From: Candidatus Melainabacteria bacterium | GTDB taxonomy: Bacteria; Cyanobacteriota; Vampirovibrionia; Vampirovibrionales; Vampirovibrionaceae | Assembly: GCA_050247195.1 (NCBI GenBank) | Contig: JBFWUP010000007.1 | Span: 56,836-120,835, forward strand | Length of the DNA stretch: 64,000 nt | Direction of reading: 5' to 3' | Shown: positions 1,190 to 51,123 of the stretch, one piece after another | Position numbering within the stretch: the stretch's first letter is position 1 | How the letters are laid out: the number at the start of each line of letters is the position of its first letter | Notes under the pieces: model-generated | Seen by the model: only the letters and a program-made list of their open reading frames with translations | Databases searched by the model: none | What the model was told of the DNA's origin: nothing | Program-made: the position numbers and the translations under genes

Positions 1190-1954
1190 CTACTGATTCG
1201 AATAATCGTTGTAGCCGAAGAATTCACGTTGCGAGTCGCCGGAGTAAACCTTCCAGAACCGATCCAGGCCCAGATAGCCCAGACCTAGCAGCGGCAGCGT
1301 TACTGCCCAGCGGCCATTGGAAACAGACTTCGCGGCGAAGTCCAGTATTTTACCGACGCTTTTGCCGAGACCATCAGCGAGGTGTCGGCCGACACCCCAG
1401 TTCCGCAATCCCTGTCGTGCCGAATTCAGCGGCGCCCCGAAGGCACGACGACTCTCACGGGCGACAGCCCTGAAGGGTGCGTGAACGGCCCTGGCCCCAA
1501 AACCGCCGTACAGGCCTGCAAAACCCAATCCAATAAAGGGCAGGTTGGGTAAAAGAATTTCATTGATGAATCCCTCCGTATACGCTTTGATACGATAACC
1601 ACTGGCACGCAGTTTAAACGGTCCGTACAGCACGACGCGTTTCAACCGGACAGCAAGGCTGTCAAATCCGGGATGGCCTGAATAGAAACCAGCATTGAAT
1701 CTGAACTGGTCCATGGACAGTTCATTCTGGTAAGCCTGATAACGTTGTTCCCAGAGATCACGTGATCCACGAACAGAATCGCGCATCATCAGGTAAGCCA
1801 CGGCAATGGCGCCAAGTCCAAGCGCCTTCCGGCTGGCGGAGCCCGCCACACGGCTGACGCCGTTGCCGGCGACGCTGGTGGCGCGCGATGCGCCCTGACG
1901 GACGTTGCCGGGCAGGTGAATGTTATGCGGAATGTTGGGCGGCACGCTGCTCAT
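1190..1954 (-). CDS. hypothetical protein, Gly-rich C-terminal half
   Basis: 254-aa ORF; 4-nt ATGA overlap with the upstream gene suggests translational coupling. Confidence 0.5.
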   Translation of the reverse strand: MSSVPPNIPHNIHLPGNVRQGASRATSVAGNGVSRVAGSASRKALGLGAIAVAYLMMRDSVRGSRDLWEQRYQAYQNELSMDQFRFNAGFYSGHPGFDSLAVRLKRVVLYGPFKLRASGYRIKAYTEGFINEILLPNLPFIGLGFAGLYGGFGARAVHAPFRAVARESRRAFGAPLNSARQGLRNWGVGRHLADGLGKSVGKILDFAAKSVSNGRWAVTLPLLGLGYLGLDRFWKVYSGDSQREFFGYNDYSNQ

Positions 1955-2898
1955 GCCTGTCCTCCTTGCGGATTGCCGGAACTGGCCGGCGCTTCTTGTG
2001 GTGACGTTTGTGTGTTACCCGCAGGTTGCCCCTGCGGCGGCTCTGGCTGAGGTGGTAGCGGATTGTTACCGGCCGCCAGGCGGCCGAGAATCTGCTTGGC
2101 GGCTTCCGACTCAATATCCATCAGCGAATGATTGGCCGTCATGGCGTTCAGCAGGTCCTGCACCCCCTGAGACGGATTTGTCACGCCACCGAGATCCATG
2201 GCCAGAAAAGCGGGCTGGTGCACCACCGGGCTGGTGTCCCGGAGCATTTTCTCCAGAAAGGCATCTACAAACGGCTTGGTGTCCGGCTGGTTGGCCAGCG
2301 TGGGGTTGGCTTTCAGAATTTTGAAGAGATCCATGCCGGCTTTAGCGCGGGTCATCTCATCCGGATCGTTCATCCGGTCATTCAGGCTTTTCACCGTCTG
2401 GGCGTCCAGCGTGGCGCCGGGCTTCTGCAGATCCGGTTTGGGCGGCTCGGGCGCTTTTGGCTGCGCGGGTGGCTGCGGTTGCTGAGCCGGGGGGGGTTGC
2501 GCAGCGGGCGCTGGCGGCGGCGCCTGAGGCGCTGGCTGGCCGTTGGGCTGCGCACCGGGTGCGGCGTTGTAAATGTTGTTCTGCTGATTGGGCGACAGCC
2601 ACGGCATGCCTGGCACCGCGCCGGACTGATGCTGATACAGCATGGGCGCCACCAGGTAGGGCGGGGGTATTTCCGCCAACGGTGGGCCGGGGTTGGGGGC
2701 AGGCATTGCAGCCCCACTCACGCCATACCCACCACCGGGCGTCTCGCCGGTGGGCGCGCCGAATCCCCCGGCGGCCATCATTCCTGGCGGTGGCGGCAGC
2801 GGTGGCAGTGGATTGAGTATGCTGGTATTCCCCATTGAGACCCTATCTCCGTCCGAACGGCCCTGGCCGCCCGGTTGCCCTGTCGTGTCCGGCGTCAT
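1951..2898 (-). CDS. proline-rich hypothetical protein
   Basis: 315-aa ORF with a long P/Q/A-rich low-complexity N-terminal half and a structured C-terminal domain. Confidence 0.5.
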   Translation of the reverse strand: MTPDTTGQPGGQGRSDGDRVSMGNTSILNPLPPLPPPPGMMAAGGFGAPTGETPGGGYGVSGAAMPAPNPGPPLAEIPPPYLVAPMLYQHQSGAVPGMPWLSPNQQNNIYNAAPGAQPNGQPAPQAPPPAPAAQPPPAQQPQPPAQPKAPEPPKPDLQKPGATLDAQTVKSLNDRMNDPDEMTRAKAGMDLFKILKANPTLANQPDTKPFVDAFLEKMLRDTSPVVHQPAFLAMDLGGVTNPSQGVQDLLNAMTANHSLMDIESEAAKQILGRLAAGNNPLPPQPEPPQGQPAGNTQTSPQEAPASSGNPQGGQA

Positions 2899-3045
2899 GC
2901 AGGCTATCCGGTGGATATCATGGATATCACAGAAACCCTCGCGCCTGGCGGGCGCAATGACACCTTACTCGTATAAAACCAATTCAGGGGATTTTGGTGC
3001 TACCAGGGAGGGGGGTTGAGGGGTGGAGCGCCCCTCACAACCGGG

Positions 3046-9862: not shown

Positions 9863-11257
9863 ATGGGCATCAAAGTTCCGGTCCAAAAGGCCGAAGTAGT
9901 CCTTATGAAGGACTTACTGACACGCTTTGAATCCTTCTTTAATGAGGATTTTCTTGGATTCAGCAAAGGGCTGCTCGCCCTGGCGGGCCTGGCCTTTGTC
10001 GGTTTTATCAGCGTGTGTCTCAGCATCATTCACTTTGTGTACATTGTACCCGAAGATGCCCTGGCTGAACTCTCGGCGCCACCCTGGCGGAGCCTGAATG
10101 TGTCCTCACACCTGGTGGAAACGCAGACGGACTTCAAGCGGATTCAGCAGACACTGTTTAATATGTCGCTCAACGCCGAGCACAAGGCCGACCCCATTCC
10201 ATTCTATCTGCTGGCCAAACTGAGTGAGCTGAAGGACGACGACAAAGAGGCGCTGTATTACTACGAGCAATCTCGCATGAAACTCGAAGCCTCCCCGCTG
10301 GATATGCATCGTTTAAAGTTTGTCCGCGATGATATTCTGCTTCATCTGGCCAGTTTTTACTACTTTAATAACAAGATGAAAGAGGCCCGTGTGGCGTTGG
10401 TGCATATTCAGGATGTGGACCGACTCACGGACCCGCGTCTTTATGTGTCGCTGGACAATGTACTGTATGAAAGCAGGCGGGCCGACTACCACTATGAAAT
10501 GGCGCAGGTGCTCAAGGACGATCTGGCGTTCCGCAAGGCGCGCGAAGAGCTGCATAAGGCCCTCTCGCTGTGCTCCGATGAGCGACTGAAAGAAACCATA
10601 CAGAATTACGAGAAAACCAACCTGCCGCTGATCGTCAATGATATTGCCCCGGAGCACCGGTATTATCTGCGGATGGGGATGCGCCTGGAAGACACCGGCA
10701 ATGTGGAAGTGGCCATCCGACTGTATAAAAAGGTACTTAAACAATACCCAAAACTGGAACTGGCATCGCATTTACTGGCGTCGGCTTACCTCAAAAATAA
10801 CAAAGTGACCGAGGCCATTCATCACAGCCAGAGCAGTCTGCAGGTAAACCCCGATTTTTACCTGGCCTACCTCACCTTGGGCGATATTGAGCTGGAGGCC
10901 GGTCAGATGGACCGGACGCTGAATCACTATCAGCAGGCGCTGAACATTGTCCGTCGGTTTTCTGATGAAGCGAACCTGGGCCTGGCCGCCAATATCGAGA
11001 ATCACATTGCCTACGTGTACGAGACCCTTCATGTTCCGGGTCTGGCGCGGCAGCACTATGCCGCCTCCGCAGCATTGTCGCGTCAGGTGCTGGCGATGGA
11101 GGAATCCTCGGATATCGCTCCCAACAGCGCCAACAGCGCCGAGGACCTCGAATATTCCGAAGAGGCGCTGAGGCGCCTGGGACCCGAGGGACAGTCGCGC
11201 GAAGAGGTGGCGACCGGGCAGAATCACGTCATAAAATCGAAGAACACGTCCAGATAA
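9863..11257 (+). CDS. TPR-repeat protein with an N-terminal TM segment
   Basis: Multiple 34-aa TPR-like repeats (…AIRLYKKVLKQYPK…, …YLAYLTLGDIELEAGQ…). Confidence 0.7.
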   Translation: MGIKVPVQKAEVVLMKDLLTRFESFFNEDFLGFSKGLLALAGLAFVGFISVCLSIIHFVYIVPEDALAELSAPPWRSLNVSSHLVETQTDFKRIQQTLFNMSLNAEHKADPIPFYLLAKLSELKDDDKEALYYYEQSRMKLEASPLDMHRLKFVRDDILLHLASFYYFNNKMKEARVALVHIQDVDRLTDPRLYVSLDNVLYESRRADYHYEMAQVLKDDLAFRKAREELHKALSLCSDERLKETIQNYEKTNLPLIVNDIAPEHRYYLRMGMRLEDTGNVEVAIRLYKKVLKQYPKLELASHLLASAYLKNNKVTEAIHHSQSSLQVNPDFYLAYLTLGDIELEAGQMDRTLNHYQQALNIVRRFSDEANLGLAANIENHIAYVYETLHVPGLARQHYAASAALSRQVLAMEESSDIAPNSANSAEDLEYSEEALRRLGPEGQSREEVATGQNHVIKSKNTSR

Positions 11258-15507: not shown

Positions 15508-18123
15508 TTAGTGAGAATAATCATCTTCAGGGGCGGTTGAAACCGCCTCCTGCTGCTGCGGCAGCAGCACCGGCAGCTCCACACCGTATATCTGCACCGG
15601 CTCCCGGATACCTTTGACAGGCACCTGCCCGAGATCCCGGAAATGGACATTCTCGCGGTCCTGCGGCCGGGTCAGCGTGTCATCCAGCACCTGCCGGCGG
15701 GTTTCATCGCTGACCACAATGCGCGAGCCCACTTTGCGCGTCAGCCCTTCCAGGCGGGAGCCCAGATTGACGGCCGCCCCCATGACCGTAAAACTTTTAA
15801 TATCTTCCGAGCCGAAGTTCCCCACAACCATATCCCCACTGCTCAGTCCCACGCCGATTTTGAGCGGGCTCAGCCCACGCGCCGCCCAGCTTTCGTTCAG
15901 TTCAGCCAGGTGGGCATGCATTTCCATGGCGGCCTGGCAGGCCCTGCGTGCATGGTCCGGAAAACCGACCGGAGCGCCGAAGAAGGCCATAATCGCATCG
16001 CCCATGTATTTGTCGTAGGTTCCCTGGTGTTTCAGTATCACGCGGGTCATGGCGGTAAAGAACTCATTGAGCTGGACCACCATGAGTTCGGGATCCACCG
16101 TCTCAAACTGGGCTGTAAAGCCCTGCAGATCGGCAAACAGCACCGTGAGGTTCTTCTTGGCGCCGGCCAGGTTTTGCATGCTGTTGGCCGGGCTGGCCAG
16201 TATCTGGTCCATCACCTGTGGGGACACGTATTTGGAGAACACCCGCGTCAGCTGATGCTTCTCACGGTCGTGGACATAATAGCGGTAAACGCCCCCACCG
16301 GCCGTCGCCGCCAGTAACAGCACACTCGGCGTGACAATGGGAATCCACCAGCCCTGCGCGGTGAACATCCACACATTGTAAAACCAGAAGCCCGCCAGCA
16401 GCAGGCCGGCCAGCGCAATACCCAGGTAAAACCGCCGGATACGGAGAACACCGAGCATCACAAAGCCCATCAGCAGGGCCACCACGCCGTAGACAATCCA
16501 GGTGGCTGCCGGCCGCACGAAGTTATGGTCGTTCAGCGTCATATCCAGCACCGTGGCGAGAATCTCCGGTCCGTAGACATTCCCGCCCATCGGTGTGCGG
16601 TGCATGTCGGTCATGGTGTCGCCGTAAATCACAATCTTGTCCCGGAAATCAATCGTTCCCTTGTCCGGGCGCCGGTAAACACGGTTGAGTGAGGAATTCA
16701 CCGGGTCGGGGTTCAGCCCTTCATCGGCCAGCAGCACATCCACGGCGGAAACAATGCGGTACAGATGCCCGTACCCCAGCCAGTCCGTTCCGGCTTCCAG
16801 GTCCACGCGCCGGAGTTCCGTCTCCGTGGCTGGCAAACCGGCTTTTTTGAGGATGGAAGCCACCAGCGCTCTGGGATGCCGCCAGTTGATCATCACCTCG
16901 CCATGGGCGTCCAGCGGCAGTGTTTTGCCGTTCAGGCTCACCTTCAGAGCGTCCCCGGCGTCATTCAGGCGCAGTGTGGCCTGGCTGCGTTCGTTCACCA
17001 GGGGGCGGATACCCAGATAGGGGTAAAACACGTCGCCATACGTCCGGTAAAACGGCGTGACGGTCCTCAGCTGGGAATCCCCCTCGTACTTCACGCTGGT
17101 CATCCCCACGCCGCGGGCAGCCTGAAAGAAAGGCATATGGACCGCCAGCGTGCTGCAGTAGGTGATGGGATCCAGCAGGGGGCTGGCGCTGAGCCGTTCC
17201 TGATCCCAGGTGAGAGGTGTACCGTGTGTGGCCAGCCAGTCCAGAAATTCCGGCTGGGCGGCAAAAGTCTGGCGGTAGATGTGGGTCAGGCAGTCCTCGG
17301 CATACAGGGCATCCATCGGGTTGCCAATCGCCGGCCGGCTGGCGAACACCTCACCCGGCTTCGGCTGGCGCCTCAGCCACCCTCTCCTGCGAGGAGAGGG
17401 TTTAGACGGGTTCAGCAGTTCGTAGTCCCAGGGGCCTCGGAACACGGCTGTGGGCAGGCCCAGCATGGCCGGGATATCAGACACTCCTTGCAGCCCAAGT
17501 GCGGGATAGTAGGCAGGAAGGCCCCAGCGGGCGCTCAGGGTCGCCTGGGCGCGCACATAGGGAAGCAGGCGGGTCATGAACAGGGCGCGGTTCAGCGCCG
17601 CTTGGTATGCCTGTGGTGTGGGGTTCTGGCGGGCCTTGTACTCAGCCAGGTTCAGCTCCGCGGATTCGGCAATATACACGTTCCCCGCCCGGCGGATAGC
17701 GTCTTCCAGCACAGCGTCCTCCTCCGGGGTGGACTCCCCGTTGAAGCTGATGTCCAGAATGACGGCGCGGGGGTGCTGGGCGCTGATGTGGTTGAGAATC
17801 TGAGCGACACGGCCGCGGGGCATCATGCGGCGGGGCAGCTGGTACTCCGGATGGTTGACCCCGTAGTCGAAGCTCTTGCGGTCAATGCCGACGATGACGA
17901 TGTCATCTGAGGGGATGAAGCGCTCGGAGCGCAGGAGCAGGCGGACATCCAGCATGCTCAGCTCCAGCCGGTGAAGGATGCCCGGGGCGTTCAGGGCGTA
18001 AAAGCACGCCATTACCAGCACAAGAACCACCCCCCAGAGGCAGATCACCAGGGGGGGGACGGAAACCGCGTGATCCGTCGCAGAGGTTGGTGTGGGCTTG
18101 GGTTGCGCCTGCCGGGAGGCCAT
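15508..18123 (-). CDS. CHASE2-sensor, membrane-anchored class III adenylate/guanylate cyclase
   Basis: C-terminal cyclase catalytic motifs (…FADLQGFT…YMGDAIMAFFGAP…); long periplasmic CHASE2-like region followed by TM helices. Confidence 0.85.
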   Translation of the reverse strand: MASRQAQPKPTPTSATDHAVSVPPLVICLWGVVLVLVMACFYALNAPGILHRLELSMLDVRLLLRSERFIPSDDIVIVGIDRKSFDYGVNHPEYQLPRRMMPRGRVAQILNHISAQHPRAVILDISFNGESTPEEDAVLEDAIRRAGNVYIAESAELNLAEYKARQNPTPQAYQAALNRALFMTRLLPYVRAQATLSARWGLPAYYPALGLQGVSDIPAMLGLPTAVFRGPWDYELLNPSKPSPRRRGWLRRQPKPGEVFASRPAIGNPMDALYAEDCLTHIYRQTFAAQPEFLDWLATHGTPLTWDQERLSASPLLDPITYCSTLAVHMPFFQAARGVGMTSVKYEGDSQLRTVTPFYRTYGDVFYPYLGIRPLVNERSQATLRLNDAGDALKVSLNGKTLPLDAHGEVMINWRHPRALVASILKKAGLPATETELRRVDLEAGTDWLGYGHLYRIVSAVDVLLADEGLNPDPVNSSLNRVYRRPDKGTIDFRDKIVIYGDTMTDMHRTPMGGNVYGPEILATVLDMTLNDHNFVRPAATWIVYGVVALLMGFVMLGVLRIRRFYLGIALAGLLLAGFWFYNVWMFTAQGWWIPIVTPSVLLLAATAGGGVYRYYVHDREKHQLTRVFSKYVSPQVMDQILASPANSMQNLAGAKKNLTVLFADLQGFTAQFETVDPELMVVQLNEFFTAMTRVILKHQGTYDKYMGDAIMAFFGAPVGFPDHARRACQAAMEMHAHLAELNESWAARGLSPLKIGVGLSSGDMVVGNFGSEDIKSFTVMGAAVNLGSRLEGLTRKVGSRIVVSDETRRQVLDDTLTRPQDRENVHFRDLGQVPVKGIREPVQIYGVELPVLLPQQQEAVSTAPEDDYSH
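17380..17400. repeat. REP-like perfect palindrome CCCTCTCC-TGCGA-GGAGAGGG embedded in the cyclase CDS
   Basis: Same arm sequence as the intergenic palindromes at 41.9 kb and 59.28 kb; encodes a low-complexity RRRGWLRR linker. Confidence 0.4.
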
Positions 18124-18203: not shown

Positions 18204-18665
18204 TTACCCGTCCGACTTGAGGAGCTTACTGACGCCGCTGGCCATGAGCGTGCCGAGGGCGAAACCGCCGAGTGGGATGTAACTGCCGGCAAAGCGCCCG
18301 AAAGGCTTGCCGAGGTGAAAGCCAGGCAGCAGTTTGCGACCCAGAGCAAACCCGGCGCCGGCCACCTCCCAGATGACGATGTTTTTGGCGCCCTGGCCGG
18401 CGGTGGCTTTGGTGGCGGCGATTAGTGGACTGTTACCCTCCAGTTCCGCCTGACGATAAGCGCTGACGCCCGCGCGGGCGGTATCCAGACCCATGAGGCT
18501 GAGGCCGAAGAGCTGACCGAGGCCCATGCCGCTGACTTTGCCGAGCCCTTTTGCGTTGGGATCCCAAATGGTTTTCAGCGGCTCCACATTCTGGCGCCAC
18601 ACGGTCTCTTTCAGGTACTCCCGCCAGCCATGGTTGAATATCGTTTCGCCATTTCGTAGTGTTTT
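18204..18665. repeat. left arm of a ~460-bp inverted repeat (3' half of paralog A)
   Basis: About 95% nucleotide identity to the reverse complement of 22866..23324. Confidence 0.75.
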
Positions 18666-19109
18666 GAGAATATTAGAAGGTTTGAGTTCCCTTGTTATAG
18701 TTGCAAAATTCCATCTGACAAGCCTTCCGTAGTGTGTTGGGTTTCTCAATTGAGAAAAGCTTAAATCGCGTTTGTGTCTTAGTCCGAAAAGCCCTGTGTA
18801 ACTGTATGGATGAAAATTCATAGCACGTGCTCTTAATGAGGGGGAATCCCCCAAGCGAGGGTTATGGACTTGATCGAAGGCGCTAATAAACTGATTTCTC
18901 TTATTTAGTTCAACGGCGCTCCGTCCTGTTGCCCCATCGATGAATTTTCCGGCTGCCACTCGGCTCGTCCAAATGGCGAAGCGTTTCTCGAAAACGTCCT
19001 TCAATGTTTTATTGGGGCTAAACGGCACAATCTCCCGCACTGGCGGAAGCTTTACAGACCTCTGATCTGCAAACGTATGCAGTTGAATTGGAGTGCCCTG
19101 AATGCTCAA
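18204..19109 (-). CDS. hypothetical protein, paralog A of an inverted pair (variable N-terminal half, conserved Gly-rich C-terminal half)
   Basis: 301 aa; TTG start supported by protein-level conservation with paralog B from residue 3; C-terminal ~150 aa about 97% identical to 22419..23324. Confidence 0.65.
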   Translation of the reverse strand: MSIQGTPIQLHTFADQRSVKLPPVREIVPFSPNKTLKDVFEKRFAIWTSRVAAGKFIDGATGRSAVELNKRNQFISAFDQVHNPRLGDSPSLRARAMNFHPYSYTGLFGLRHKRDLSFSQLRNPTHYGRLVRWNFATITRELKPSNILKTLRNGETIFNHGWREYLKETVWRQNVEPLKTIWDPNAKGLGKVSGMGLGQLFGLSLMGLDTARAGVSAYRQAELEGNSPLIAATKATAGQGAKNIVIWEVAGAGFALGRKLLPGFHLGKPFGRFAGSYIPLGGFALGTLMASGVSKLLKSDG

Positions 19110-19265
19110 TGTTTACCCTTTGGAATAGCCTCCCCTGTGTGCTTAAAAACAATATTTTTGTCGTAAAGGTGCTCATGTAACGTTTCTGTAACGACATTGC
19201 ACAATTACTCATTTGGTGACTATATTTGGGTTTGAGAATGACACCCCCAACCAGGATATGGAATC

Positions 19266-19547
19266 ATGCTATCCGCTCTACAGACAGGTCTATACAGCTT
19301 CTTGAGAGGAATCAGAGAAGGTGAAGACGGTGAGGAACCAAAGCCATCAACACCAAGGCCAAAATTGAGCTTCGCAGGTGAAGGTGATAACGGACTACCT
19401 CCGGTGCGTCCTGTTAAACCAGAACCCAATTACAAGTTGACATTTTCTGGCCCAGAGGGTGACGACGATGATGGTCCTGAACCCAAGCTGATGTTCGCCG
19501 GCAGCCTGCCCGCCGACGCCGGACGCCGGCTGAGCGTGCTGGGCTAA
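19266..19547 (+). CDS. small acidic repeat protein with three P-x-(K/Y)-KL-(S/T/M)-F-(A/S)-G repeats
   Basis: 93 aa; repeats PKLSFAGEGD / YKLTFSGPEGD / PKLMFAGSLPAD; SD AGGA 9 nt upstream. Confidence 0.55.
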   Translation: MLSALQTGLYSFLRGIREGEDGEEPKPSTPRPKLSFAGEGDNGLPPVRPVKPEPNYKLTFSGPEGDDDDGPEPKLMFAGSLPADAGRRLSVLG

Positions 19548-19565
19548 GCCCGCATGGCCAAAAAA

Positions 19566-19588
19566 GAAGCGCCCTTCGGGGCGCTTCC
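19566..19588. terminator. bidirectional rho-independent terminator
   Basis: GAAGCGCCC-TTCG-GGGCGCTTC perfect 9-bp stem; A5 upstream on the plus strand gives T5 after the minus-strand gene. Confidence 0.6.
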
Positions 19589-19592
19589 TAAA

Positions 19593-19871
19593 TTACTGGT
19601 TACCTGGTAGACCAGGAAGGTCCCCACCGCCGGAGGTGCCACCGGAATAGATGGGAACGCGTTGGCCGAGGATGAATTCGGAGCGGGTGTCAAAAAAGCT
19701 GGCCAGTCCGTTCATGCCGTTGGATTCAAACCGATCCGATAGGGCGCTGAAGCGATTGGCGCGGGTGGTCAGGCGGTTGGAAATAGCTGTATTCTGATCC
19801 GTGGTGTTGCTGGCGGCGCGCTGGGTATCCAGCGCCAGAATGAACGCGTTAAAGCGACTGAAATTGATCAT
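19593..19871 (-). CDS. small peptide gene, member 1 of the FG / C-terminal GLPGLPGNQ family
   Basis: 92 aa ending …GGGDLPGLPGNQ-stop; own SD and terminator. Confidence 0.65.
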   Translation of the reverse strand: MINFSRFNAFILALDTQRAASNTTDQNTAISNRLTTRANRFSALSDRFESNGMNGLASFFDTRSEFILGQRVPIYSGGTSGGGDLPGLPGNQ

Positions 19872-19967
19872 CTCAGGATGTCCTCTCTCTCTATTGTCGT
19901 GCTCTCTTCGATAGCGTATAGAGATATAAAAACAATCCGAAGGGATATCTTGATCGTTTATGACAAA

Positions 19968-19990
19968 AAATAAAGCGCCCTTTCGAGCGC
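19968..19990 (-). terminator. rho-independent terminator candidate
   Basis: AAAGCGC…GCGCTTT stem followed by a T-run on the minus strand, just past the stop of 20001..20171. Confidence 0.5.
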
Positions 19991-20000
19991 TTTATCTTAT

Positions 20001-20171
20001 TTATTGATTTCCTGGTAAACCAGGCAAGCCACCACCAGACCCGCCACCGGAGTTTCCACAATTACCATGTCCGGCGTATACGGGCCTACCACCATTCTGT
20101 TTGTTACGCGCCTGATTGGCCCGGTTCTGACCAAAACTTGCAGCCGAAGAATATCCAATGCTCATTGACAT
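20001..20171 (-). CDS. small peptide gene, member 2 of the FG / C-terminal GLPGLPGNQ family (not in the ORF track)
   Basis: Hand-translated 56 aa MSMSIGYSSAASFGQNRANQARNKQNGGRPVYAGHGNCGNSGGGSGGGLPGLPGNQ; SD GGAGAT 7 nt upstream; terminator downstream. Confidence 0.6.
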   Translation of the reverse strand: MSMSIGYSSAASFGQNRANQARNKQNGGRPVYAGHGNCGNSGGGSGGGLPGLPGNQ

Positions 20172-20282
20172 ACCAATATCTCCTCATTTCGTGTGTTCTA
20201 ACAACCAACCTTGATGGTTATATAAAAACAAGCAAATAAATTTCGGTGTTACTTCATTTACATAAATATAAAAAAACGGCAC

Positions 20283-20306
20283 CGATATACGATGCCGTTT
20301 AAACAA
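20283..20306 (-). terminator. rho-independent terminator candidate
   Basis: AACGGCA…TGCCGTT stem; T-run on the minus strand (A7 at 20272-20278 on the plus strand). Confidence 0.45.
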
Positions 20307-20318
20307 ACTGAACTTTGA

Positions 20319-20564
20319 CTATTGGCAACCAGGAAGACCTGGGAGGCAAGGTTGTGTTGTTGTCGTCACAACAGTCGTCGCGGGTGGCTTGCCATGGTGT
20401 CTTGGGGGTCTGTTTCCACGGCCAGGTCTGTTGCAGGCTTCAGCTACACCCGCTCCTAAAGTACCCACTGTCAACAATGCTCCCACCCCGGCTGCTGCCA
20501 TTTTAGAACGAGCACTGCGAAAAGCACCAAACTCAATGGAAGGGGTGTTCATCCCTACGTTCAT
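20319..20564 (-). CDS. small peptide gene, member 3 of the family (C-terminal LPGLPGCQ)
   Basis: 81 aa with a hydrophobic AAAGVGALLTVGTLGAGVAEA segment, a poly-Thr stretch, and …QPCLPGLPGCQ-stop; SD AGGAG 8 nt upstream. Confidence 0.6.
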   Translation of the reverse strand: MNVGMNTPSIEFGAFRSARSKMAAAGVGALLTVGTLGAGVAEACNRPGRGNRPPRHHGKPPATTVVTTTTQPCLPGLPGCQ

Positions 20565-20983
20565 AGGTCAACTCCTGTCTATATTTTCGTGTAACTACAA
20601 TATGGATCGTGAAGACCCACGCTGCTGCTTCTCTGAAGAACCACTTAAGTATGAAAACCACCACGGCAGCGCCATTGTATCTAACGGGAAAAGCCCGGGT
20701 CGGTCAAGGGTAAAACAGCCAACCGGTGCGTATTGAAAGGTAATGCACCCTATATTGCCATATGTCATCAGGGTTAATCATGCCCGATGCCGCTGAAACC
20801 CCCGTATTCTTTCGGTTTTGCCCGGTTGTGGCTTCATAATGCTTAACAAACCTATATATTCCGTGTGTCCCCGCCGAAAACCCATGGTGAACGGATATGG
20901 CCATGGTTAGGCTGGGCGCCCCGTGATAGGCGGGGGCCACCCTTCAGGAAGAAGCACTCAACGTCCAGAGAGGAAAGACGACG

Positions 20984-22030
20984 ATGCGCTGGAATGATTT
21001 GATGATGACGACCCGCATGGGCGCGCGCCCGCTGCTGAGACCCGGTGTACAGGCCGGGGTGACCGCCATGGAGTACGCCCTGCCCATTGGCCTGGTGGTG
21101 GTGCTCACCATTCCCGCGCTGGGCGCCCTGGGCGATATGACCAACGGGATGTTTGGCGGCATGCTGGGCATCAGCCAGCCTGCCCCGGCGCAGGAGATTG
21201 CCAGCGCCGAAGAAGTGATTGGCGCGCCGTCTCAGGCCGTTGACTCCGGCGATGTGTCCACCGAAACGCCCAGTGACCCGGCCGATGTGGGTGCAACCCC
21301 GGCCGACCCCACCCCCGCACCAGCCACCTCACCCCCGCAGTCGGTCCCCAGTAATGTGACGGTGTCCTTTGACCCGGCGACCGGGATGATTAAATACACC
21401 GGCTATGACGCCGCCGGCAACAAGATCGAAACCACCGACGCCAGCGGCACCGAACTCACGCTCTACATGGCGCAGATGTTGGAAAACCTAGCGGCCACAG
21501 CAACAAAAGACAACGGCCAACCGCTGCCGCCAGCGATTATTGGTTATATTAAAGACTTGGCTAATAAGGGCTATGATTTAAGCTCAAAAGAAAAAACTGT
21601 TGTTGATAATAATACGCTTGAAATTAGAAATACAATCGATTTAGATGCTCTCTATGGTCCAGCGGCCCAAAGAACTGCTGAACAAAAAGCTGAGATAAAT
21701 GCTCAATTTCAAGATATAACCGATTTCACTTATTCGCTTTATTACATGAAACAAAGCTATGACGCATTGATGAGTTATGTTGGGAATAAAAATGGTTATA
21801 CTGAATTAAAATCCCAGATAAGTTTGTATTCTGGAGTAATTAGCAGTGTAGGAATTCAGAATTTTCATATGCAGCAAACTGCTAACCAAACGACAGGGTC
21901 ATCCACTTTTTATAATTCATATGGTTTTGGAAGCACTGTTAACACCTCAGCCGTGAGCTTAGATATGTCCCCCATCGTCACCCACATTGAGTCCGGGAAT
22001 ATCGAACAAACGGCCAACCAGGTGCCGTAA
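20984..22030 (+). CDS. protein with a Flp/Fap-pilin-like class III signal-peptide N-terminus and a low-GC-encoded C-terminal domain
   Basis: N-terminus …RPGVQAG|VTAMEYALPIGLVVVLTIPALGALG matches the Flp prepilin G/xxxxEY plus hydrophobic-stretch motif; SD GAGAGGA; the 3' half (21.5-22.0 kb) is about 35% GC. Confidence 0.6.
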   Translation: MRWNDLMMTTRMGARPLLRPGVQAGVTAMEYALPIGLVVVLTIPALGALGDMTNGMFGGMLGISQPAPAQEIASAEEVIGAPSQAVDSGDVSTETPSDPADVGATPADPTPAPATSPPQSVPSNVTVSFDPATGMIKYTGYDAAGNKIETTDASGTELTLYMAQMLENLAATATKDNGQPLPPAIIGYIKDLANKGYDLSSKEKTVVDNNTLEIRNTIDLDALYGPAAQRTAEQKAEINAQFQDITDFTYSLYYMKQSYDALMSYVGNKNGYTELKSQISLYSGVISSVGIQNFHMQQTANQTTGSSTFYNSYGFGSTVNTSAVSLDMSPIVTHIESGNIEQTANQVP

Positions 22031-22051
22031 GGCCGGGTAAAGCAATACCAC

Positions 22052-22082
22052 AGAGCGCTCCGGTTCCGCCGGGGCGCTTTGG
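22052..22082 (+). terminator. terminator candidate after the Flp-like gene
   Basis: GCGCTCCGG-TTCCG-CCGGGGCGC imperfect stem followed by TTTGG. Confidence 0.4.
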
Positions 22083-22418
22083 TCGTTGGGGGGCAGCTCG
22101 CAGCGTCAGGCCAGGGCGTTCAGGCGTCGGCCTGCGTCGACGGGCGGGTTGGCGGTAAATTGGAGGCTGGGTTCAGGTCCATCTTTTCCTTCATCCCCCT
22201 CACCACCTGAAAAAAAAGGAGGTGCAAGCATTAAAGAGATATTATTGAGACTTGTCATAAGATCACCTTCAGTGTTGGGGGGGAACTGTCCTAAACCACA
22301 ATATAGAACTGACTTGACTTTTAGTCGCAGAGTGTTAATAACTCGTTACATGAACGGTGATAATGGTCTGCATGCGTTTTCATGCGGTTAATGGGGGTAC
22401 CATCTCAGGAGAGTTCAT

Positions 22419-23324
22419 TTGGGGGTTCAAGGAACAACCACCGTATTTACCTATGGTCAGCAAGGCAATCCTCATATGTTGCCGTCTGTCCGGGAGATTG
22501 TGCCGTTTAGTCCGAACAAAACTATCGAGGACGTTTTCGAGAAACGCTTCGCCATCTGGACAAGTCGAGTCGCCGCTGGGAAATTTGTGGATAATTTTAC
22601 AGGTAGGGGTTTGATTGATTTTGAAAAAAGGAATTCTTTCATAAAACAGTATGACAAGATTCACAATCCGACTTTGTCAAATTTCCCAGACCTTGCGGAA
22701 AAGGCTCTCGGCTTCAATCCTCACAGTTATTCTGGCCTTTTCAGTATTCGAAGCAAGCGAGATATGACCTTCTCTCACCTGAAAAGTCCGAAGTCCTATG
22801 TGAGAAAAGTACGGTGGAATTTTAAACCGCTTGGCCGACATTTATCTCCGAAGAATATTGTCAGTAACGTTCGATCTGGTCAGTCAATTTTTGCTTTCGG
22901 TTGGCGGGAGTACCTGAAAGAGACCGTGTGGCGCCAGAATGTGGAGCCACTGAAAACCATCTGGGATCCCAACGCAAAAGGGCTCGGCAAAGTCAGCGGC
23001 ATGGGCCTCGGTCAGCTCTTCGGCCTCAGCCTCATGGGTCTGGATACCGCCCGGGCGGGCGTCAGCGCTTATCGTCAGGCGGAGCTGGAAGGAAACAGTC
23101 CACTGGTGGCGGCCACCAAAGCCACCGCCAGCCAGGGCGCCAAAAACATCGTCATCTGGGAGGTCGCCGGCGCCGGATTTGCTCTGGGTCGCAAACTGCT
23201 GCCGGGCTTTCACCTCGGCAAGCCTTTCGGGCGCTTTGCAGGCAGTTACATCCCGCTTGGCGGCTTCGCCCTCGGCACACTCATGGCCAGCGGCGTCAGC
23301 AAGCTCCTCAAGCCGGACGACTGA
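22419..23324 (+). CDS. hypothetical protein, paralog B of the inverted pair
   Basis: 301 aa; TTG start with SD AGGAGA 5 nt upstream; C-terminal half near-identical to paralog A; the middle of the gene is AT-rich. Confidence 0.65.
   Translation: MGVQGTTTVFTYGQQGNPHMLPSVREIVPFSPNKTIEDVFEKRFAIWTSRVAAGKFVDNFTGRGLIDFEKRNSFIKQYDKIHNPTLSNFPDLAEKALGFNPHSYSGLFSIRSKRDMTFSHLKSPKSYVRKVRWNFKPLGRHLSPKNIVSNVRSGQSIFAFGWREYLKETVWRQNVEPLKTIWDPNAKGLGKVSGMGLGQLFGLSLMGLDTARAGVSAYRQAELEGNSPLVAATKATASQGAKNIVIWEVAGAGFALGRKLLPGFHLGKPFGRFAGSYIPLGGFALGTLMASGVSKLLKPDD
22866..23324. repeat. right arm of the ~460-bp inverted repeat (3' half of paralog B)
   Basis: Reverse complement is about 95% identical to 18204..18665. 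Confidence 0.75.
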
Positions 23325-50107: not shown

Positions 50108-50217
50108 TTTTCAGGGGAACACAAACCTCATCAAATCCCGCATCTTTCCGGTTGTTTTGGTTTTATACTGGCAGAGGCCCGGAGCGTTAACCGGACCCGG
50201 CCAAGGGAATTCCCGAA

Positions 50218-51123
50218 GTGGGAAACACAAACCAACTGACCATCACAGCGAGCACACCGGCAGGGCCCTCAGCGGCTCCCATCCGGCAGATTCTCAGCGG
50301 GGGGGCGTTGCCGGCGGCAATGCCCGCCACAGAGAGCCCGTCCTCCGCATCCGACATCAATCCCCCGGACACCTTCCGTTATCTCAGAGATCAGGAACAC
50401 CCGGTAACCGGGGCCGCAGCTGAAGGCCTTACACAGCTTTCCCCCACCGCCCTTGAAGAAGCGTCTCAGGATAAAAAGGCGCTTCACCTCCTGACAGCCG
50501 CCAAGCTGGTTATGGGAGGCGGGGTCGTCGGGTTTTTCGGCAGCCGCCTGTTTGGCGTGAGTATGCCCAAGTTTGCCGCCATGGAAATGGGCATGGGTTT
50601 TCTTGAATCCATGCTGGTTGAAGGCGTTTACAAAGGAAAAATCCCCGGGACGCAGAAGCTCGTTGATTGGGCGAAAAAGAAATCACCCAAGGATATCAGC
50701 CAGAACAGCAACCCGGTCTCGCCGGACGTCGCCGCCAAAGCCGAGGAAAAGGCCAAGGAGCGCGCCGTCACCCGGCTGTCTGTCATTGTCACTGCAGTCA
50801 GCGGCATAACTTCCGGTCTGCTGGCCAAGTACCTGCTGCCGCGACTCGGACATGCCTCAGCACACCCGCATGTGGCGCCGCCGTTGTCGGAAGCCCTGAT
50901 TCAGCTGCGGGAAACCCGTGGGATAACAAACCGGCTGACCCCTGCCCTGCGCGTCACCGCCAGCTGGCTGAACGAGCAGGCTCCCGTCCGCCTCATCAAG
51001 AAAAACGTCTGGCTGGGGCTGGCGGCCAACACGGCCATGTTTATGGGCGTGGGCTGGCTGGAAGGCAAACTGGCCGAAGCCTTTGACAGCAAGCGAAAAT
51101 TTCCCTTCCGCCTGTTCAGCTGA
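50218..51123 (+). CDS. hypothetical protein with internal hydrophobic segments
   Basis: 301-aa ORF; no recognisable domain. Confidence 0.45.
   Translation: MGNTNQLTITASTPAGPSAAPIRQILSGGALPAAMPATESPSSASDINPPDTFRYLRDQEHPVTGAAAEGLTQLSPTALEEASQDKKALHLLTAAKLVMGGGVVGFFGSRLFGVSMPKFAAMEMGMGFLESMLVEGVYKGKIPGTQKLVDWAKKKSPKDISQNSNPVSPDVAAKAEEKAKERAVTRLSVIVTAVSGITSGLLAKYLLPRLGHASAHPHVAPPLSEALIQLRETRGITNRLTPALRVTASWLNEQAPVRLIKKNVWLGLAANTAMFMGVGWLEGKLAEAFDSKRKFPFRLFS

What the first reader, a model, noticed from the sequence alone, without database searches (positions are those of the whole stretch)
19593..20564. Three tandem monocistronic small genes with an invariant C-terminal GLPGLPG(N/C)Q and shared 5'-UTR elements
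Three minus-strand genes (92, 56 and 81 aa) each have their own Shine-Dalgarno and their own rho-independent terminator. Their Gly/Asn/Ser/Thr-rich products have an FG-containing N-terminal motif (NFSRF / SFGQNRANQARNK / EFGAFRSARSK). Every one of them ends exactly with (G)LPGLPGNQ or LPGLPGCQ at the stop codon. The middle gene is absent from the ORF track. All three carry a CACGA(A/C)AAT-like element just 5' of the SD. The first two also share TTGTTTTTATATA about 50-55 nt upstream of the start, which suggests co-regulation. An invariant C-terminal tag on otherwise variable small peptides resembles a recognition signal for a dedicated processing, export or polymerisation machinery, but it fits no sorting signal I know. 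It is not LPXTG plus a TM anchor, not PEP-CTERM, and not a GG-leader. Such a peptide family is undescribed as far as I can tell.
Basis: seen in the sequence. Interest (0 to 1): 0.8.

Follow-up and report, generated by a model that had tools for sequence, protein, structure and literature searches.

The report
Orphan small proteins sharing one tail
Three neighbouring mini-genes in an uncultured Melainabacteria genome encode otherwise different small proteins that all end in the same eight amino acids; selection clearly preserves this tail, but nothing like it turned up in any database searched here, so its partner and purpose are unknown.

Summary
Three minus-strand genes (92, 56 and 81 aa) each have a Shine-Dalgarno site and a strong intrinsic terminator. 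Each ends exactly in LPGLPGNQ or LPGLPGCQ.

The tail is conserved as protein, not as repeated DNA. ORF1 and ORF2 differ at 6 of its 24 bases, all synonymous (P about 1e-4). ORF2 and ORF3 differ at 10 of 24 with one residue change.

The host is a landfill Melainabacteria MAG. The genes lie in a low-GC 4.3-kb island bounded by inverted paralogous 301-aa genes.

No relative was found. The searches were Pfam, NCBIfam, PHROGs, PADLOC, PDB, a word-index search of 5.8 billion protein clusters, a profile search of 1.84 billion representatives, and exact-motif DNA scans of 185,579 species genomes and JGI metagenomes. No known sorting, ligation or precursor-peptide family fits. No export or processing gene is recognisable in the 64 kb.

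My best reading (about 0.35) is a tethered C-terminal docking peptide on a flexible linker, bound by one common partner. The main rival is a released C-terminal signal peptide, as in cyanobacterial PatS/PatX.

The family is real and undescribed, but it is known from one organism and has no functional evidence. Interest is moderate.

The parts
19593..19871 (-). ORF1, 92 aa. Predicted long N-terminal helix (residues 4-51), then a disordered Gly/Ser-rich tail ending DLPGLPGNQ.
   Evidence: Searches give the ORF. One search is a single-sequence AlphaFold2 model: pLDDT is 77-93 over the helix and below 50 for residues 62-79 and 89-92. One search shows it is the only one of the three annotated at NCBI (MGE0201281.1, hypothetical protein).
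20001..20171 (-). ORF2, 56 aa. Basic (pI 10.3), 27% Gly, Asn/Ser-rich, no hydrophobic segment. Ends GGGLPGLPGNQ.
   Evidence: One search shows it is a paralogue of ORF1 over about 40 aa upstream of the tail (3 of 1000 shuffles reach the score). One search shows 17 of the 24 identical residues use different codons.
20319..20564 (-). ORF3, 81 aa, pI 10.8. Residues 22-43 are hydrophobic and end AEA|C, which is signal-peptide-like. A Pro/Arg-rich stretch and then a Thr-rich stretch follow. Ends C-LPGLPG-C-Q, with Cys at -9 and -2 bracketing the hexapeptide.
   Evidence: One search gives the maximum Kyte-Doolittle window of 1.76 at residue 27. One search shows no significant similarity to ORF1 or ORF2 outside the tail. 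The signal peptide and the disulfide are inferred from the sequence, not predicted by a dedicated tool.
19596..19619 (-). DNA encoding LPGLPGNQ of ORF1: CTT CCT GGT CTA CCA GGT AAC CAG.
20004..20027 (-). DNA encoding LPGLPGNQ of ORF2: TTG CCT GGT TTA CCA GGA AAT CAA.
   Evidence: It differs from ORF1 at 6 bases, all synonymous (P about 1e-4).
20322..20345 (-). DNA encoding LPGLPGCQ of ORF3: CTC CCA GGT CTT CCT GGT TGC CAA.
   Evidence: It differs from ORF2 at 10 of 24 bases with one residue change (0 of 200,000 simulations).
19558..19588 (-). Intrinsic terminator of ORF1: GAAGCGCCC-CGAA-GGGCGCTTC followed by T6.
   Evidence: 11-bp stem; z = -3.4 for the 71-nt 3' end.
19963..19995 (-). Intrinsic terminator of ORF2: ATAAAGCGCTC-GAAA-GGGCGCTTTAT followed by a T run. 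The stem closely resembles that of ORF1.
   Evidence: z = -4.3.
20267..20300 (-). Intrinsic terminator of ORF3: AAACGGCATCG-TATAT-CGGTGCCGTTT followed by T7.
   Evidence: 11 pairs; z = -5.1.
19924..19935 (-). Promoter-like element TTGTTTTTATAT, 52 nt upstream of the ORF1 start.
   Evidence: One search shows the exact 12-mer occurs only twice in the window. Searches show the looser TTG.TTTTATA occurs 5 times against 0.04 expected.
20220..20231 (-). The same element TTGTTTTTATAT, 48 nt upstream of the ORF2 start.
19893..19901 (-). CACGACAAT element in the ORF1 leader, just 5' of the SD.
   Evidence: The position is shared by all three genes, but the 9-mer is not enriched in the window.
20185..20193 (-). 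CACGAAATG element in the ORF2 leader. It abuts the SD.
20583..20591 (-). CACGAAAAT element in the ORF3 leader.
18204..19109 (-). Context: left border gene of the island, an orphan 301-aa protein with a Gly-rich hydrophobic C-terminal third. It is a paralogue of the right border gene.
   Evidence: 74% identity to the right copy. (421-nt inverted repeat at 95%, 18209-18629 and 22899-23319). (only two further paralogues, both in the same MAG). (AlphaFold2 model unusable, pLDDT 38.7).
22419..23324 (+). Context: right border gene of the island, the inverted 301-aa paralogue.
20984..22030 (+). Context: 348-aa protein transcribed divergently from ORF3. It has an Flp-prepilin-like N-terminus (G/VTAMEY plus a hydrophobic stretch) and a long orphan C-terminal part.
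   Evidence: Flp_Fap 18.8 bits, below the 32.2 cut-off. (NCBI names it 'Flp family type IVb pilin').
19266..19547 (+). Context: 93-aa acidic Pro/Gly-rich ORF convergent with ORF1. It belongs to a second small-protein family (PEPxLxF[AS]G repeats, ending DAGRRLSVLG).
22106..22258 (-). Context: 50-aa ORF at the mirror position, ending DAGRRLNALA.

Best explanation
**What they are.** The three genes encode a lineage-restricted family of small, basic, largely disordered proteins. Each is made from its own promoter, SD and terminator.

**Proposed mechanism.** Their one common, strongly selected feature is the free C-terminal octapeptide LPGLPG[N/C]Q. It sits at the end of a flexible linker, Gly/Ser-rich in ORF1 and ORF2 and Thr/Pro-rich in ORF3. 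I propose that it is a tethered short linear docking motif. One common partner protein binds this tail, and so receives, positions or handles three different N-terminal payloads:
- a long helix (ORF1);
- a short basic disordered segment (ORF2);
- a Sec-exported or membrane-anchored Pro/Arg-rich segment (ORF3). In ORF3 the motif appears to be stapled into a loop by flanking cysteines.

In logic this is what encapsulin cargo-loading peptides or the SSB C-terminal tip do.

**Shown versus inferred.**
- Shown: gene structure, selection on the tail, and the absence of relatives.
- Inferred: that the tail is bound rather than cleaved or modified, the identity of the partner (possibly one of the orphan island proteins), the export of ORF3, and the disulfide.
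For: 1. All three proteins stop exactly two residues after LPGLPG, so the position relative to the free carboxyl end is conserved.
2. Selection acts on the amino acids. ORF1 and ORF2 show 6 base differences in 24 nt, all synonymous (P about 1e-4). ORF2 and ORF3 show 10 differences with one residue change (0 of 200,000 simulations). Across the ORF1/ORF2 alignment, 17 of 24 identical residues use different codons, so synonymous sites are near saturation and the duplication is old.
3. ORF3 shares nothing significant with the others except the tail. The tail is therefore the functional unit, and the N-terminal parts are exchangeable.
4. The residues directly before the tail are low-complexity linkers: SGGTSGGGD, GNSGGGSGGG and TTVVTTTTQPC. 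The ORF1 model is ordered only in residues 4-51 and disordered around the tail.
5. Precedents for a short terminal peptide in a disordered region used as a docking tag:
   - the SSB C-terminal tip behind its disordered linker (PMC10164576 and PMC7913777).
6. The island also encodes an Flp-prepilin-like protein and two membrane-protein-like paralogues. This fits an envelope-associated role.
Against: - No partner was identified.
- Nothing in the island or the 64 kb has a domain known to read C-termini, such as PDZ, S41 peptidase or an HK97 shell, and no TPR protein lies next to the trio.
- The payloads are tiny (about 15-65 aa), which is unusual for cargo.
- Two members appear cytoplasmic and one exported, so a single partner would have to meet them in different compartments or before export.
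- There is no expression or proteomic evidence.
- The family exists in one MAG only, so conservation across species cannot be shown.
- The data do not separate 'tail stays attached' from 'tail is released'.
Confidence: 0.35

Rival explanations
1. **Released C-terminal signal peptide.** The proteins are pro-peptides. The conserved octapeptide, or a slightly longer C-terminal fragment, is cut off and acts as a diffusible or intracellular signal that binds one receptor. This is how PatS, HetN and PatX of cyanobacteria all supply the same RG(S/T)GR peptide, and how Phr peptides work in Firmicutes.
For: - The active motif sits at the extreme C-terminus, as in PatS and PatX (PMC7761841; PMC12756182).
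- Several genes with unrelated N-terminal parts carry one identical motif.
- The mix of two members without a signal peptide and one with a Sec-type signal mirrors PatS/HetN (cytoplasmic processing) against PatX (exported, then cleaved by PatP), according to PMC12756182.
- The small genes are monocistronic with strong signals.
- Melainabacteria are the sister group of Cyanobacteria (own knowledge).
Against: - There is no conserved cleavage site before the tail. The preceding residues are D, G and C.
- Gly-rich linkers are poor protease sites.
- No receptor or peptidase gene is adjacent.
- The motif itself is unrelated to RG(S/T)GR.
- ORF1 and ORF2 keep about 40 aa of additional similarity upstream. 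A mere pro-region would not obviously need that.
Confidence: 0.22
2. **Bacteriocin- or microcin-like secreted peptides.** In this reading the common C-terminus is an uptake, recognition or export module, and the N-terminal parts carry different activities. The flanking 301-aa membrane-type proteins would act as immunity or export factors.
For: - The genes are tandem small cationic Gly-rich peptide genes (pI 10.3 and 10.8 for ORF2 and ORF3) in a low-GC accessory island.
- The island also holds genes for proteins with Gly-rich hydrophobic helices.
- ORF3 has a Gly/Ala-rich hydrophobic segment and a possible C-terminal disulfide loop, as class IIa microcins such as MccV have (own knowledge).
- Class IIb microcins are defined by a shared C-terminal motif that is modified after translation (PMC11634061).
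Against: The class IIb criteria listed in PMC11634061 are not met.
- There is no Ser-rich C-terminus ending in Ser.
- ORF1 and ORF2 have no GG/GA leader.
- No transmembrane ORF lies within 200 bp.

Further points against:
- No C39-peptidase ABC exporter or modification genes were found in 64 kb.
- ORF1 and ORF2 have no hydrophobic or amphipathic killing segment, and ORF1 is near neutral.
Confidence: 0.12
3. **C-terminal covalent chemistry.** The G-[N/C]-Q end would be the site of an enzymatic modification or ligation. The proteins would then be modifiers in the manner of Pup (C-terminal GGQ/GGE), or scaffold peptides or follower-type precursors of a ribosomally made natural product.
For: - The extreme C-terminus is invariant and ends in Gln.
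- The products are small and disordered.
- The only substitution in the tail is Asn to Cys at position -2. Both residues can take part in acyl-shift or cyclisation chemistry (inference).
- Precursor families with an invariant C-terminal core exist, for example mycofactocin MftA and PqqA (own knowledge).
Against: - There is no Pup Pfam match and the end is not GGQ/GGE.
- No PafA/Dop, proteasome, radical SAM, YcaO, ATP-grasp, lanthipeptide-type or peptidase genes were found in the island or the window.
- Precursor genes are normally clustered with their enzymes.
Confidence: 0.08
4. **Not functional proteins.** The ORFs would be chance or decaying reading frames. The conserved element would act as DNA or RNA, for example the CCWGG-N4-CCWGG inverted repeat together with the terminator.
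For: - The LPGLPG-coding DNA is an inverted repeat in all three genes, with the Pro codons swapped in ORF3. This looks like a compensatory change.
- NCBI's pipeline did not call ORF2 or ORF3.
- There are no homologues anywhere.
Against: - The pattern of substitutions is what protein-level selection gives, and is very unlikely otherwise (P about 1e-4 and below 1e-5).
- Leu, Gly, Asn and Gln codons outside the 5-bp arms also vary only synonymously.
- Each ORF has a correctly spaced SD and ATG, and a terminator placed just after its stop.
- The hairpin coincidence is weak on its own: 0.016 for any complementary pair, given the island's codon usage.
Confidence: 0.04

Closest known systems
Encapsulin cargo-loading (targeting) peptides
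   Same: A short conserved peptide at the very C-terminus, behind a flexible disordered linker, shared by otherwise unrelated proteins of one genome and read by a single partner. Family 2 cargo carries Gly/Pro-rich motifs (GPTGLGT) repeated at the extreme C-terminus (PMC8346489).
   Different: The tail does not resemble the family 1 consensus SDGSLGIGSLKRS or GPTGLGT. No HK97-fold shell gene is detectable nearby. The payloads are 15-65 aa peptides rather than enzymes. One member looks exported.
PatS / HetN / PatX peptides of heterocyst-forming cyanobacteria
   Same: Three different genes carry one identical short motif. In PatS and PatX it lies at the C-terminus. Some precursors lack a signal peptide and one has a Sec signal. 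The genes are small and monocistronic. The organisms belong to the sister phylum (PMC7761841, PMC12756182).
   Different: The motif is LPGLPG[NC]Q rather than RG(S/T)GR. No HetR-type receptor or PatP-type peptidase is linked. The three genes here are tandem paralogues in one island. Processing has not been shown.
SSB C-terminal tip (and the FtsZ C-terminal peptide)
   Same: A Gly/Asn/Gln-rich intrinsically disordered linker ends in an invariant peptide of 6-9 residues at the free C-terminus that docks partner proteins (PMC10164576, PMC7913777).
   Different: There is no OB fold or any other folded domain. The tail is uncharged and Pro/Gly-rich rather than acidic (DDDIPF). The family is confined to one lineage rather than universal.
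Class IIb (siderophore) microcins
   Same: Small Gly-rich ribosomal peptides whose common feature is a conserved C-terminal motif (PMC11634061).
   Different: The tail is not Ser-rich and does not end in Ser. ORF1 and ORF2 have no GG/GA leader. No adjacent immunity, modification or export genes were found.
Pup / ubiquitin-like small modifiers
   Same: Small disordered proteins whose conserved extreme C-terminus ends in Gln (own knowledge).
   Different: The end is G[NC]Q rather than GGQ/GGE. There is no Pup Pfam match. No PafA, Dop or proteasome genes are in the window.
C-terminal sorting signals (LPXTG, PEP-CTERM, GlyGly-CTERM and similar)
   Same: A short conserved motif near the C-terminus that begins with LPG/LPx.
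   Different: Those signals are tripartite: motif, transmembrane helix and basic tail. Here the protein ends two residues after the motif. No sortase, exosortase or rhombosortase was found in the window.

Membership tests
LPXTG sortase substrates | LPXTG-type pentapeptide | tested here: not met
   The sequence is L-P-G-L-P-G, with Leu rather than Thr at position 4.
LPXTG sortase substrates | Hydrophobic helix and basic tail after the motif, and an N-terminal signal peptide | tested here: not met
   Only two residues ([NC]Q) follow the motif before the stop. Only ORF3 has a hydrophobic N-terminal segment.
PEP-CTERM / GlyGly-CTERM / other exosortase- or rhombosortase-type signals | Motif plus transmembrane helix plus an Arg-rich cluster at the C-terminus | tested here: not met
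   No hydrophobic stretch follows or contains the tail. NCBIfam, which holds these CTERM models, gave no hit.
Encapsulin family 1 cargo | C-terminal targeting peptide matching the consensus SDGSLGIGSLKRS (GSL core) | tested here: not met
   The tail LPGLPG[NC]Q has no GSL core. The consensus is taken from PMC8346489.
Encapsulin family 1 cargo | HK97-fold shell gene within about 5 kb | tested here: inconclusive
   No Linocin_M18 or other Pfam hit for any island protein. The fold of the 301-aa neighbours could not be judged because the AlphaFold2 model has pLDDT 38.7. Their Gly-rich hydrophobic helices look membrane-like, not capsid-like.
PatS/PatX/HetN inhibitors | RG(S/T)GR motif | tested here: not met
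   The motif is absent from all three proteins.
PatS/PatX/HetN inhibitors | Co-occurrence with HetR and the peptidase PatP | not testable with these tools
   Only 64 kb plus two 21-kb loci of this MAG could be read. None of the ORFs of at least about 120 aa scanned there has a recognised peptidase domain.
Phr / RRNPP pheromone precursors | Sec signal peptide, and an adjacent TPR-type receptor gene (Rap, NprR, PlcR) | tested here: not met
   ORF1 and ORF2 lack a signal peptide. The nearest TPR proteins are 8-9 kb away, at 9863-11257 and 28794-30365.
Pup / UBact modifiers | Pup family profile and a C-terminal GGQ/GGE | tested here: not met
   No Pfam hit at E up to 1. The ends are GNQ and GCQ.
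Pup / UBact modifiers | Linked PafA/Dop ligase and proteasome genes | tested here: not met
   None found among the window's ORFs of at least about 120 aa scanned with Pfam. The rest of the genome was not searched.
Class IIb microcins (criteria of PMC11634061) | Ser-rich C-terminus ending in Ser; leader of up to 15 aa ending GG/GA; transmembrane immunity ORF within 200 bp | tested here: not met
   The tails end NQ or CQ. ORF1 and ORF2 have no GG/GA within 15 aa; ORF3 has GA at residues 13-14 but not the rest of a double-glycine leader. The neighbouring ORFs are not transmembrane proteins.
Flp / type IVb pilins | G/XXXXEY prepilin motif followed by a hydrophobic helix | tested here: not met
   No Flp_Fap hit for the three proteins, and no EY motif. 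Only the neighbouring 348-aa protein has a sub-threshold match.
Collagen-like proteins | A long run of Gly-X-Y triplets | tested here: not met
   At most three triplets (GLP-GLP-GNQ). No Collagen Pfam hit. In the literature LPGLPG is found only in animal collagens.
Type I secretion (RTX-type) substrates | GGxGxD nonapeptide repeats, and a linked ABC transporter and membrane-fusion protein | tested here: not met
   No nonapeptide repeat is present in the sequences. No ABC or HlyD genes are in the window.

The most novel reading that the evidence does not exclude
LPGLPG[N/C]Q-COOH would be a previously unknown kind of C-terminal recognition tag. It would be read by machinery built from orphan proteins, for instance the duplicated 301-aa membrane-type proteins or the Flp-like protein of the same island. 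That machinery would export, anchor, polymerise or ligate a set of small proteins in a deep-branching Melainabacteria lineage. The system would have no sequence relationship to sortase, exosortase, encapsulin, Pup or RRNPP systems.
Probability: 0.2. Interest if true: 0.6.

Novelty: new variant of a known kind. Interest (0 to 1): 0.38.

Why it matters
If the tail is a docking or signalling peptide, it would define a new short linear motif and an unknown reader protein. The setting is the non-photosynthetic sister group of Cyanobacteria, where almost nothing is known about small proteins.

It is also a clean example of real, selected small genes that standard annotation misses. Two of the three are absent from the NCBI record.

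The practical weight is limited. The family was seen in a single landfill MAG, so any mechanism would at present be a lineage-specific curiosity rather than a general principle.

Tried and rejected
**Searches for relatives of the three peptides**
- Word-index search of 5.8 billion protein clusters with the alignment of the three peptides at E up to 10: only the three query proteins themselves.
- HMMER profile against 1.84 billion representatives: the three query proteins plus one spurious repeat protein.
- Exact-motif DNA scans: genome contigs for LPGLPGNQ plus a stop gave 40 loci. Metagenome contigs for LPGLPG[NSYC]Q plus TAA/TAG gave 53 loci. Viral contigs gave 4.
  - All hits are single copies. 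Almost all sit in frames of 0-48 codons or frames without a start. The few longer frames are unrelated in sequence. None is a Gly/Asn/Ser-rich small gene.
  - The number found in the genome collection is of the order I estimate for chance.
- Pfam, NCBIfam, PHROGs, PADLOC and PDB sequence searches of the three peptides (PDB: ORF1 only) and of the island proteins: nothing. tblastn of ORF1 against plasmids: nothing.
- Rfam on the island: only sub-threshold hits on the terminator hairpins. No tRNA genes in the window.

**Searches through the neighbouring genes**
- Homologues of the flanking 301-aa protein, to find syntenic loci: only two further paralogues, both in the same MAG. No LPGLPG genes lie next to them. 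No relative in viral contigs.
- Synteny through the neighbouring CHASE2 cyclase: the closest orthologue is only 44% identical and is cut off at a contig end. The second could not be located.

**Structure prediction**
- The 301-aa family gave an unusable model with pLDDT 38.7. No fold search was run.

**Readings considered and rejected**
- Sortase or CTERM sorting signals, collagen, Flp pilin, RTX/T1SS substrate, Pup and class IIb microcin membership (see the membership tests).
- A resemblance of the ORF1 N-terminus to flagellin N-termini, recalled from memory, has no profile support.
- RPVY in ORF2 resembling apidaecin is a four-residue coincidence.
Full report
**1. What is in the sequence**

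On the minus strand between 19593 and 20564 lie three open reading frames.

| ORF | Coordinates | Length | C-terminal end |
|---|---|---|---|
| ORF1 | 19593-19871 | 92 aa | ...SGGTSGGGDLPGLPGNQ* |
| ORF2 | 20001-20171 | 56 aa | ...GNSGGGSGGGLPGLPGNQ* |
| ORF3 | 20319-20564 | 81 aa | ...TTVVTTTTQPCLPGLPGCQ* |

LPGLPG occurs nowhere else in any of the six frames of the 64-kb window.

Each ATG is preceded at 7-9 nt by a Shine-Dalgarno sequence: GAGAGGA, GAGGAG and AGGAG. Each stop is followed within about 5-30 nt by an 11-14 bp G+C-rich hairpin and a T run. The three 3' ends fold far better than shuffles, with z from -3.4 to -5.1 and 0 of 200 shuffles as stable.

I scanned the window for small ORFs that have both an SD and a stable hairpin followed by T residues. 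The three genes stand out. The other hits are shadow ORFs or parts of larger genes such as tsf.

An independent assembly of sequencing run SRR27751815 (Logan contig, L100) is identical to window 18597-22931. The arrangement is therefore not an assembly artefact.

**2. Shared upstream elements**

The 12-mer TTGTTTTTATAT occurs exactly twice in the window. One copy is 52 nt upstream of the ORF1 start and the other 48 nt upstream of the ORF2 start. ORF3 has only a degenerate version (TGGTTTTCATAC) about 85 nt upstream.

The looser pattern TTG.TTTTATA occurs five times in the window, against 0.04 expected. Each copy lies in an intergenic region about 30-60 nt upstream of a start codon. The other three genes it precedes are unrelated orphans: 1951-2898 (-), 50218-51123 (+) and 62864-63106 (+). 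It therefore looks like a promoter or regulon element of this organism that ORF1 and ORF2 use. It is not private to the trio.

CACGA[AC]A[AT] lies 25-33 nt before all three starts. The 9-mer is not enriched in the window, with 3 found against 3.6 expected, so only the shared position is notable. Rfam finds nothing above threshold in the island.

**3. The conserved thing is a peptide, not a DNA repeat**

The codons of the tail are as follows.

| ORF | Codons of the octapeptide |
|---|---|
| ORF1 | CTT CCT GGT CTA CCA GGT AAC CAG |
| ORF2 | TTG CCT GGT TTA CCA GGA AAT CAA |
| ORF3 | CTC CCA GGT CTT CCT GGT TGC CAA |

- ORF1 and ORF2 differ at 6 of 24 bases, and all six changes are synonymous. 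Random placement of six changes keeps the peptide in about 1 of 10,000 trials.
- ORF2 and ORF3 differ at 10 of 24 bases with a single residue change, Asn to Cys. None of 200,000 trials did as well.
- Over the whole ORF1/ORF2 alignment, 17 of 24 identical residues are encoded by different codons. Synonymous sites are therefore close to saturation and the duplication is old.

The motif is kept in frame by selection on the protein.

ORF1 and ORF2 are also significantly similar for about 40 residues upstream of the tail (ASF..R...P[IV]Y[SA]G...G.SGGG; 3 of 1000 shuffles reach the score). ORF3 shares nothing significant with them beyond the tail.

**4. Properties of the products**

| ORF | pI | Main features |
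|---|---|---|
| ORF1 | 8.5 | Long helix at residues 4-51 in a single-sequence AlphaFold2 model (pLDDT 77-93); low-confidence, disordered tail |
| ORF2 | 10.3 | 27% Gly, Asn/Ser-rich, no hydrophobic segment |
| ORF3 | 10.8 | The only hydrophobic stretch of the family (residues 22-43, ending AEA|C), then Pro/Arg-rich and Thr-rich segments |

I read the ORF3 hydrophobic stretch as a Sec-type signal peptide or an N-terminal anchor. This is inferred from the sequence, because no dedicated predictor was available.

In ORF3 the hexapeptide is bracketed by cysteines (C-LPGLPG-C-Q). This suggests a disulfide-stapled loop in the one member that leaves the cytoplasm (inference).

In every case the tail follows a low-complexity linker.

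**5. Organism and surroundings**

ORF1 and its neighbours carry NCBI names from a MAG labelled Candidatus Melainabacteria bacterium (assembly GCA_050182425.1). ORF2 and ORF3 are not annotated there and are called only in the Logan assemblies. The run SRR27751815 is cited in a landfill metagenome study.

The window is chromosomal, with leuCD, purL, purF, tsf, rpsB and other housekeeping genes.

The trio lies in a 45% G+C island (about 18.6-22.9 kb) inside 60-65% G+C flanks. The island is bounded by two inverted paralogous 301-aa genes. They are 74% identical overall, and a 421-nt inverted repeat within them is 95% identical.

The island also holds:
- a 348-aa protein with a sub-threshold Flp-prepilin-like N-terminus;
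- two small acidic Pro/Gly-rich ORFs with a shared C-terminus of their own...DAGRRLxxLx.

The 301-aa family has only two further members, both in the same MAG. The copy in L099 has other small Gly-rich genes next to it that also share a C-terminus (FNRFA), but neither further copy has an LPGLPG gene beside it.

**6. Search for relatives**

Nothing related was found.

- No Pfam, NCBIfam, PHROGs, PADLOC or PDB matches.
- A word-index search of 5.8 billion clusters returned only the three query proteins.
- An exhaustive profile search of 1.84 billion representatives returned the three query proteins plus one spurious repeat protein.
- Exact-motif DNA scans covered one genome for each of 185,579 species, the JGI metagenomes and IMG/VR. 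They returned only isolated matches, almost all in very short or start-less frames. None is a Gly/Asn/Ser-rich small gene and none is in tandem.
- The MAG itself was not among the genome hits, so it is not in that collection.
- The nearest orthologue of the neighbouring CHASE2 cyclase is only 44% identical and sits at a contig end. No syntenic locus could be examined.

Caveats: the DNA scans required the exact octapeptide, and the profile search sees only ORFs that someone called.

**7. What it is not**

- The tail fails the defining features of LPXTG and CTERM sorting signals. Nothing follows it.
- It has no RG(S/T)GR, so it is not PatS-like by membership.
- It is not Pup (no GGQ/GGE, no profile match).
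- It does not meet the class IIb microcin criteria of PMC11634061.
- The three proteins are not Flp pilins, collagen or RTX substrates.
- No ORF scanned in the 64 kb shows a recognisable exporter, peptidase, ligase, radical-SAM, YcaO or HK97 shell domain.
- The fold of the 301-aa neighbours could not be obtained (pLDDT 38.7).

**8. How it most likely works**

The facts to explain are these:
- the octapeptide is fixed at the free C-terminus;
- selection keeps it through saturated synonymous change;
- the N-terminal parts are exchangeable;
- a flexible linker lies immediately before it;
- each gene has its own strong expression signals.

The simplest reading is that the tail is a ligand for one common protein. 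I favour a tethered docking tag (confidence about 0.35). It is comparable in logic to encapsulin targeting peptides, including the Gly/Pro-rich motifs at the very C-terminus of family 2 cargo (PMC8346489). It is also comparable to the SSB C-terminal tip behind its disordered linker (PMC10164576, PMC7913777).

The main rival (about 0.22) is that the tail is released as a signal. Cyanobacteria provide a close precedent. PatS, HetN and PatX are three different genes that supply the same RG(S/T)GR peptide. Two are processed in the cytoplasm. One, PatX, is exported by a Sec signal and then cleaved by PatP (PMC12756182). This is the same mix of members without and with a signal peptide seen here.

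Less likely readings:
- a bacteriocin-like family with a common C-terminal module (about 0.12);
- C-terminal covalent chemistry (about 0.08);
- non-functional ORFs with a DNA or RNA element (about 0.04).

None of these readings has direct experimental support.

**9. Unexplained detail**

The DNA encoding LPGLPG is a CCWGG-N4-CCWGG inverted repeat in all three genes. The two Pro codons are always CCT and CCA, complementary at the third base, and they are swapped in ORF3. These are the only three such palindromic pairs in the window. Given the island's codon usage, the chance is 0.016 for any complementary pair. That is suggestive but not decisive.

**10. Verdict**

The family is real, under selection and undescribed. 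It rests on three paralogues in one uncultured organism, with no identified partner and no expression data.

I rate it as a new variant of a known kind of thing, a C-terminal short linear motif on small disordered proteins. Interest is moderate (0.38). I give a 0.2 chance that it marks a new tag-and-reader system.

Noticed in passing
window 2972-2982(-), 19925-19935(-), 20221-20231(-), 50157-50167(+), 62821-62831(+): TTGKTTTTATA(Y) occurs five times in the window, against 0.04 expected from shuffles. Each copy is intergenic and about 30-60 nt upstream of the start of an orphan gene: 1951-2898(-), ORF1, ORF2, 50218-51123(+) and 62864-63106(+). There are no copies in two other 21-kb loci of the same MAG. 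It looks like a promoter or regulator site that defines a small regulon.
   Followed up: partly
window 18204-19109(-) and 22419-23324(+); L098 10001-10867; L099 10001-10981: An orphan family of proteins of about 300 aa, with four copies in this MAG and none elsewhere in 5.8 billion clusters. The C-terminal third has Gly-rich hydrophobic helices. Two copies form the inverted borders of the island (421-nt inverted repeat at 95%), which suggests gene conversion or an invertible segment. NCBI annotates the left copy as only 132 aa.
   Followed up: partly
window 19266-19547(+), 22106-22258(-); L099 10965-11225(-), 11527-11736(-): A second set of small acidic Gly/Pro-rich ORFs lies next to the 300-aa family genes. 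They carry [KR][LI]xF[AS]G-type repeats and have their own shared C-termini...DAGRRLxxLx in the window and ...FNRFA in L099. Paralogous small proteins with a fixed C-terminal end seem to be a recurring theme in this genome.
   Followed up: partly
window 20984-22030(+): A 348-aa protein with an Flp-prepilin-like leader and G/VTAMEY motif (Pfam Flp_Fap 18.8 bits, below the 32.2 cut-off). A Pro/Thr-rich linker and a roughly 250-aa orphan low-GC domain follow. This is far longer than ordinary Flp pilins. No Tad genes are recognisable in the window.
   Followed up: partly
window 19603-19616, 20011-20024, 20329-20342: The LPGLPG-coding DNA is a CCWGG-N4-CCWGG inverted repeat in all three genes, with the CCT and CCA Pro codons swapped in ORF3. 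These are the only three such palindromic pairs in the 64 kb. CCWGG itself is not avoided in the window: 274 observed against 185 in shuffles.
   Followed up: partly
window 20322-20348(-): In ORF3, the only member with a signal-peptide-like segment, Cys residues sit at -9 and -2 and bracket the hexapeptide exactly (C-LPGLPG-C-Q). ORF1 has Asp and Asn at these positions, and ORF2 has Gly and Asn. This may be a disulfide staple of the motif in the exported member.
   Followed up: no
window 19593-19871(-); L099 10965-10985, 11527-11547: ORF1 contains three RF-centred motifs (SRFNA, NRFSA, DRFES). They resemble the FNRFA C-termini of the small proteins next to the 326-aa paralogue in L099. This may be a coincidence or a second short linear motif.
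   Followed up: no
window 30642-37662(+) and many other ORFs: Three consecutive large orphan genes (912, 1015 and 419 aa) have no Pfam match, and roughly half of the window's ORFs are orphans. The closest orthologue of the CHASE2 adenylate cyclase (15508-18123) is only 44% identical. The MAG therefore represents a poorly sampled lineage.
   Followed up: no
L018 5693-5719, L065 7145-7171, L083 2763-2789; L048 7811-7837, L088 3054-3080, L091 5566-5592: The motif scans picked up a recurrent 23-codon frame in several unrelated contigs, of which the one with an organism label is Lacibacter (Chitinophagaceae). It reads M(D/G)...WYVLPGLPGNQ* or ...HVLPGLPGYQ*. It is probably a conserved DNA segment read in a non-coding frame. 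Rfam is negative for L065 and L048. It is unrelated to the finding.
   Followed up: partly
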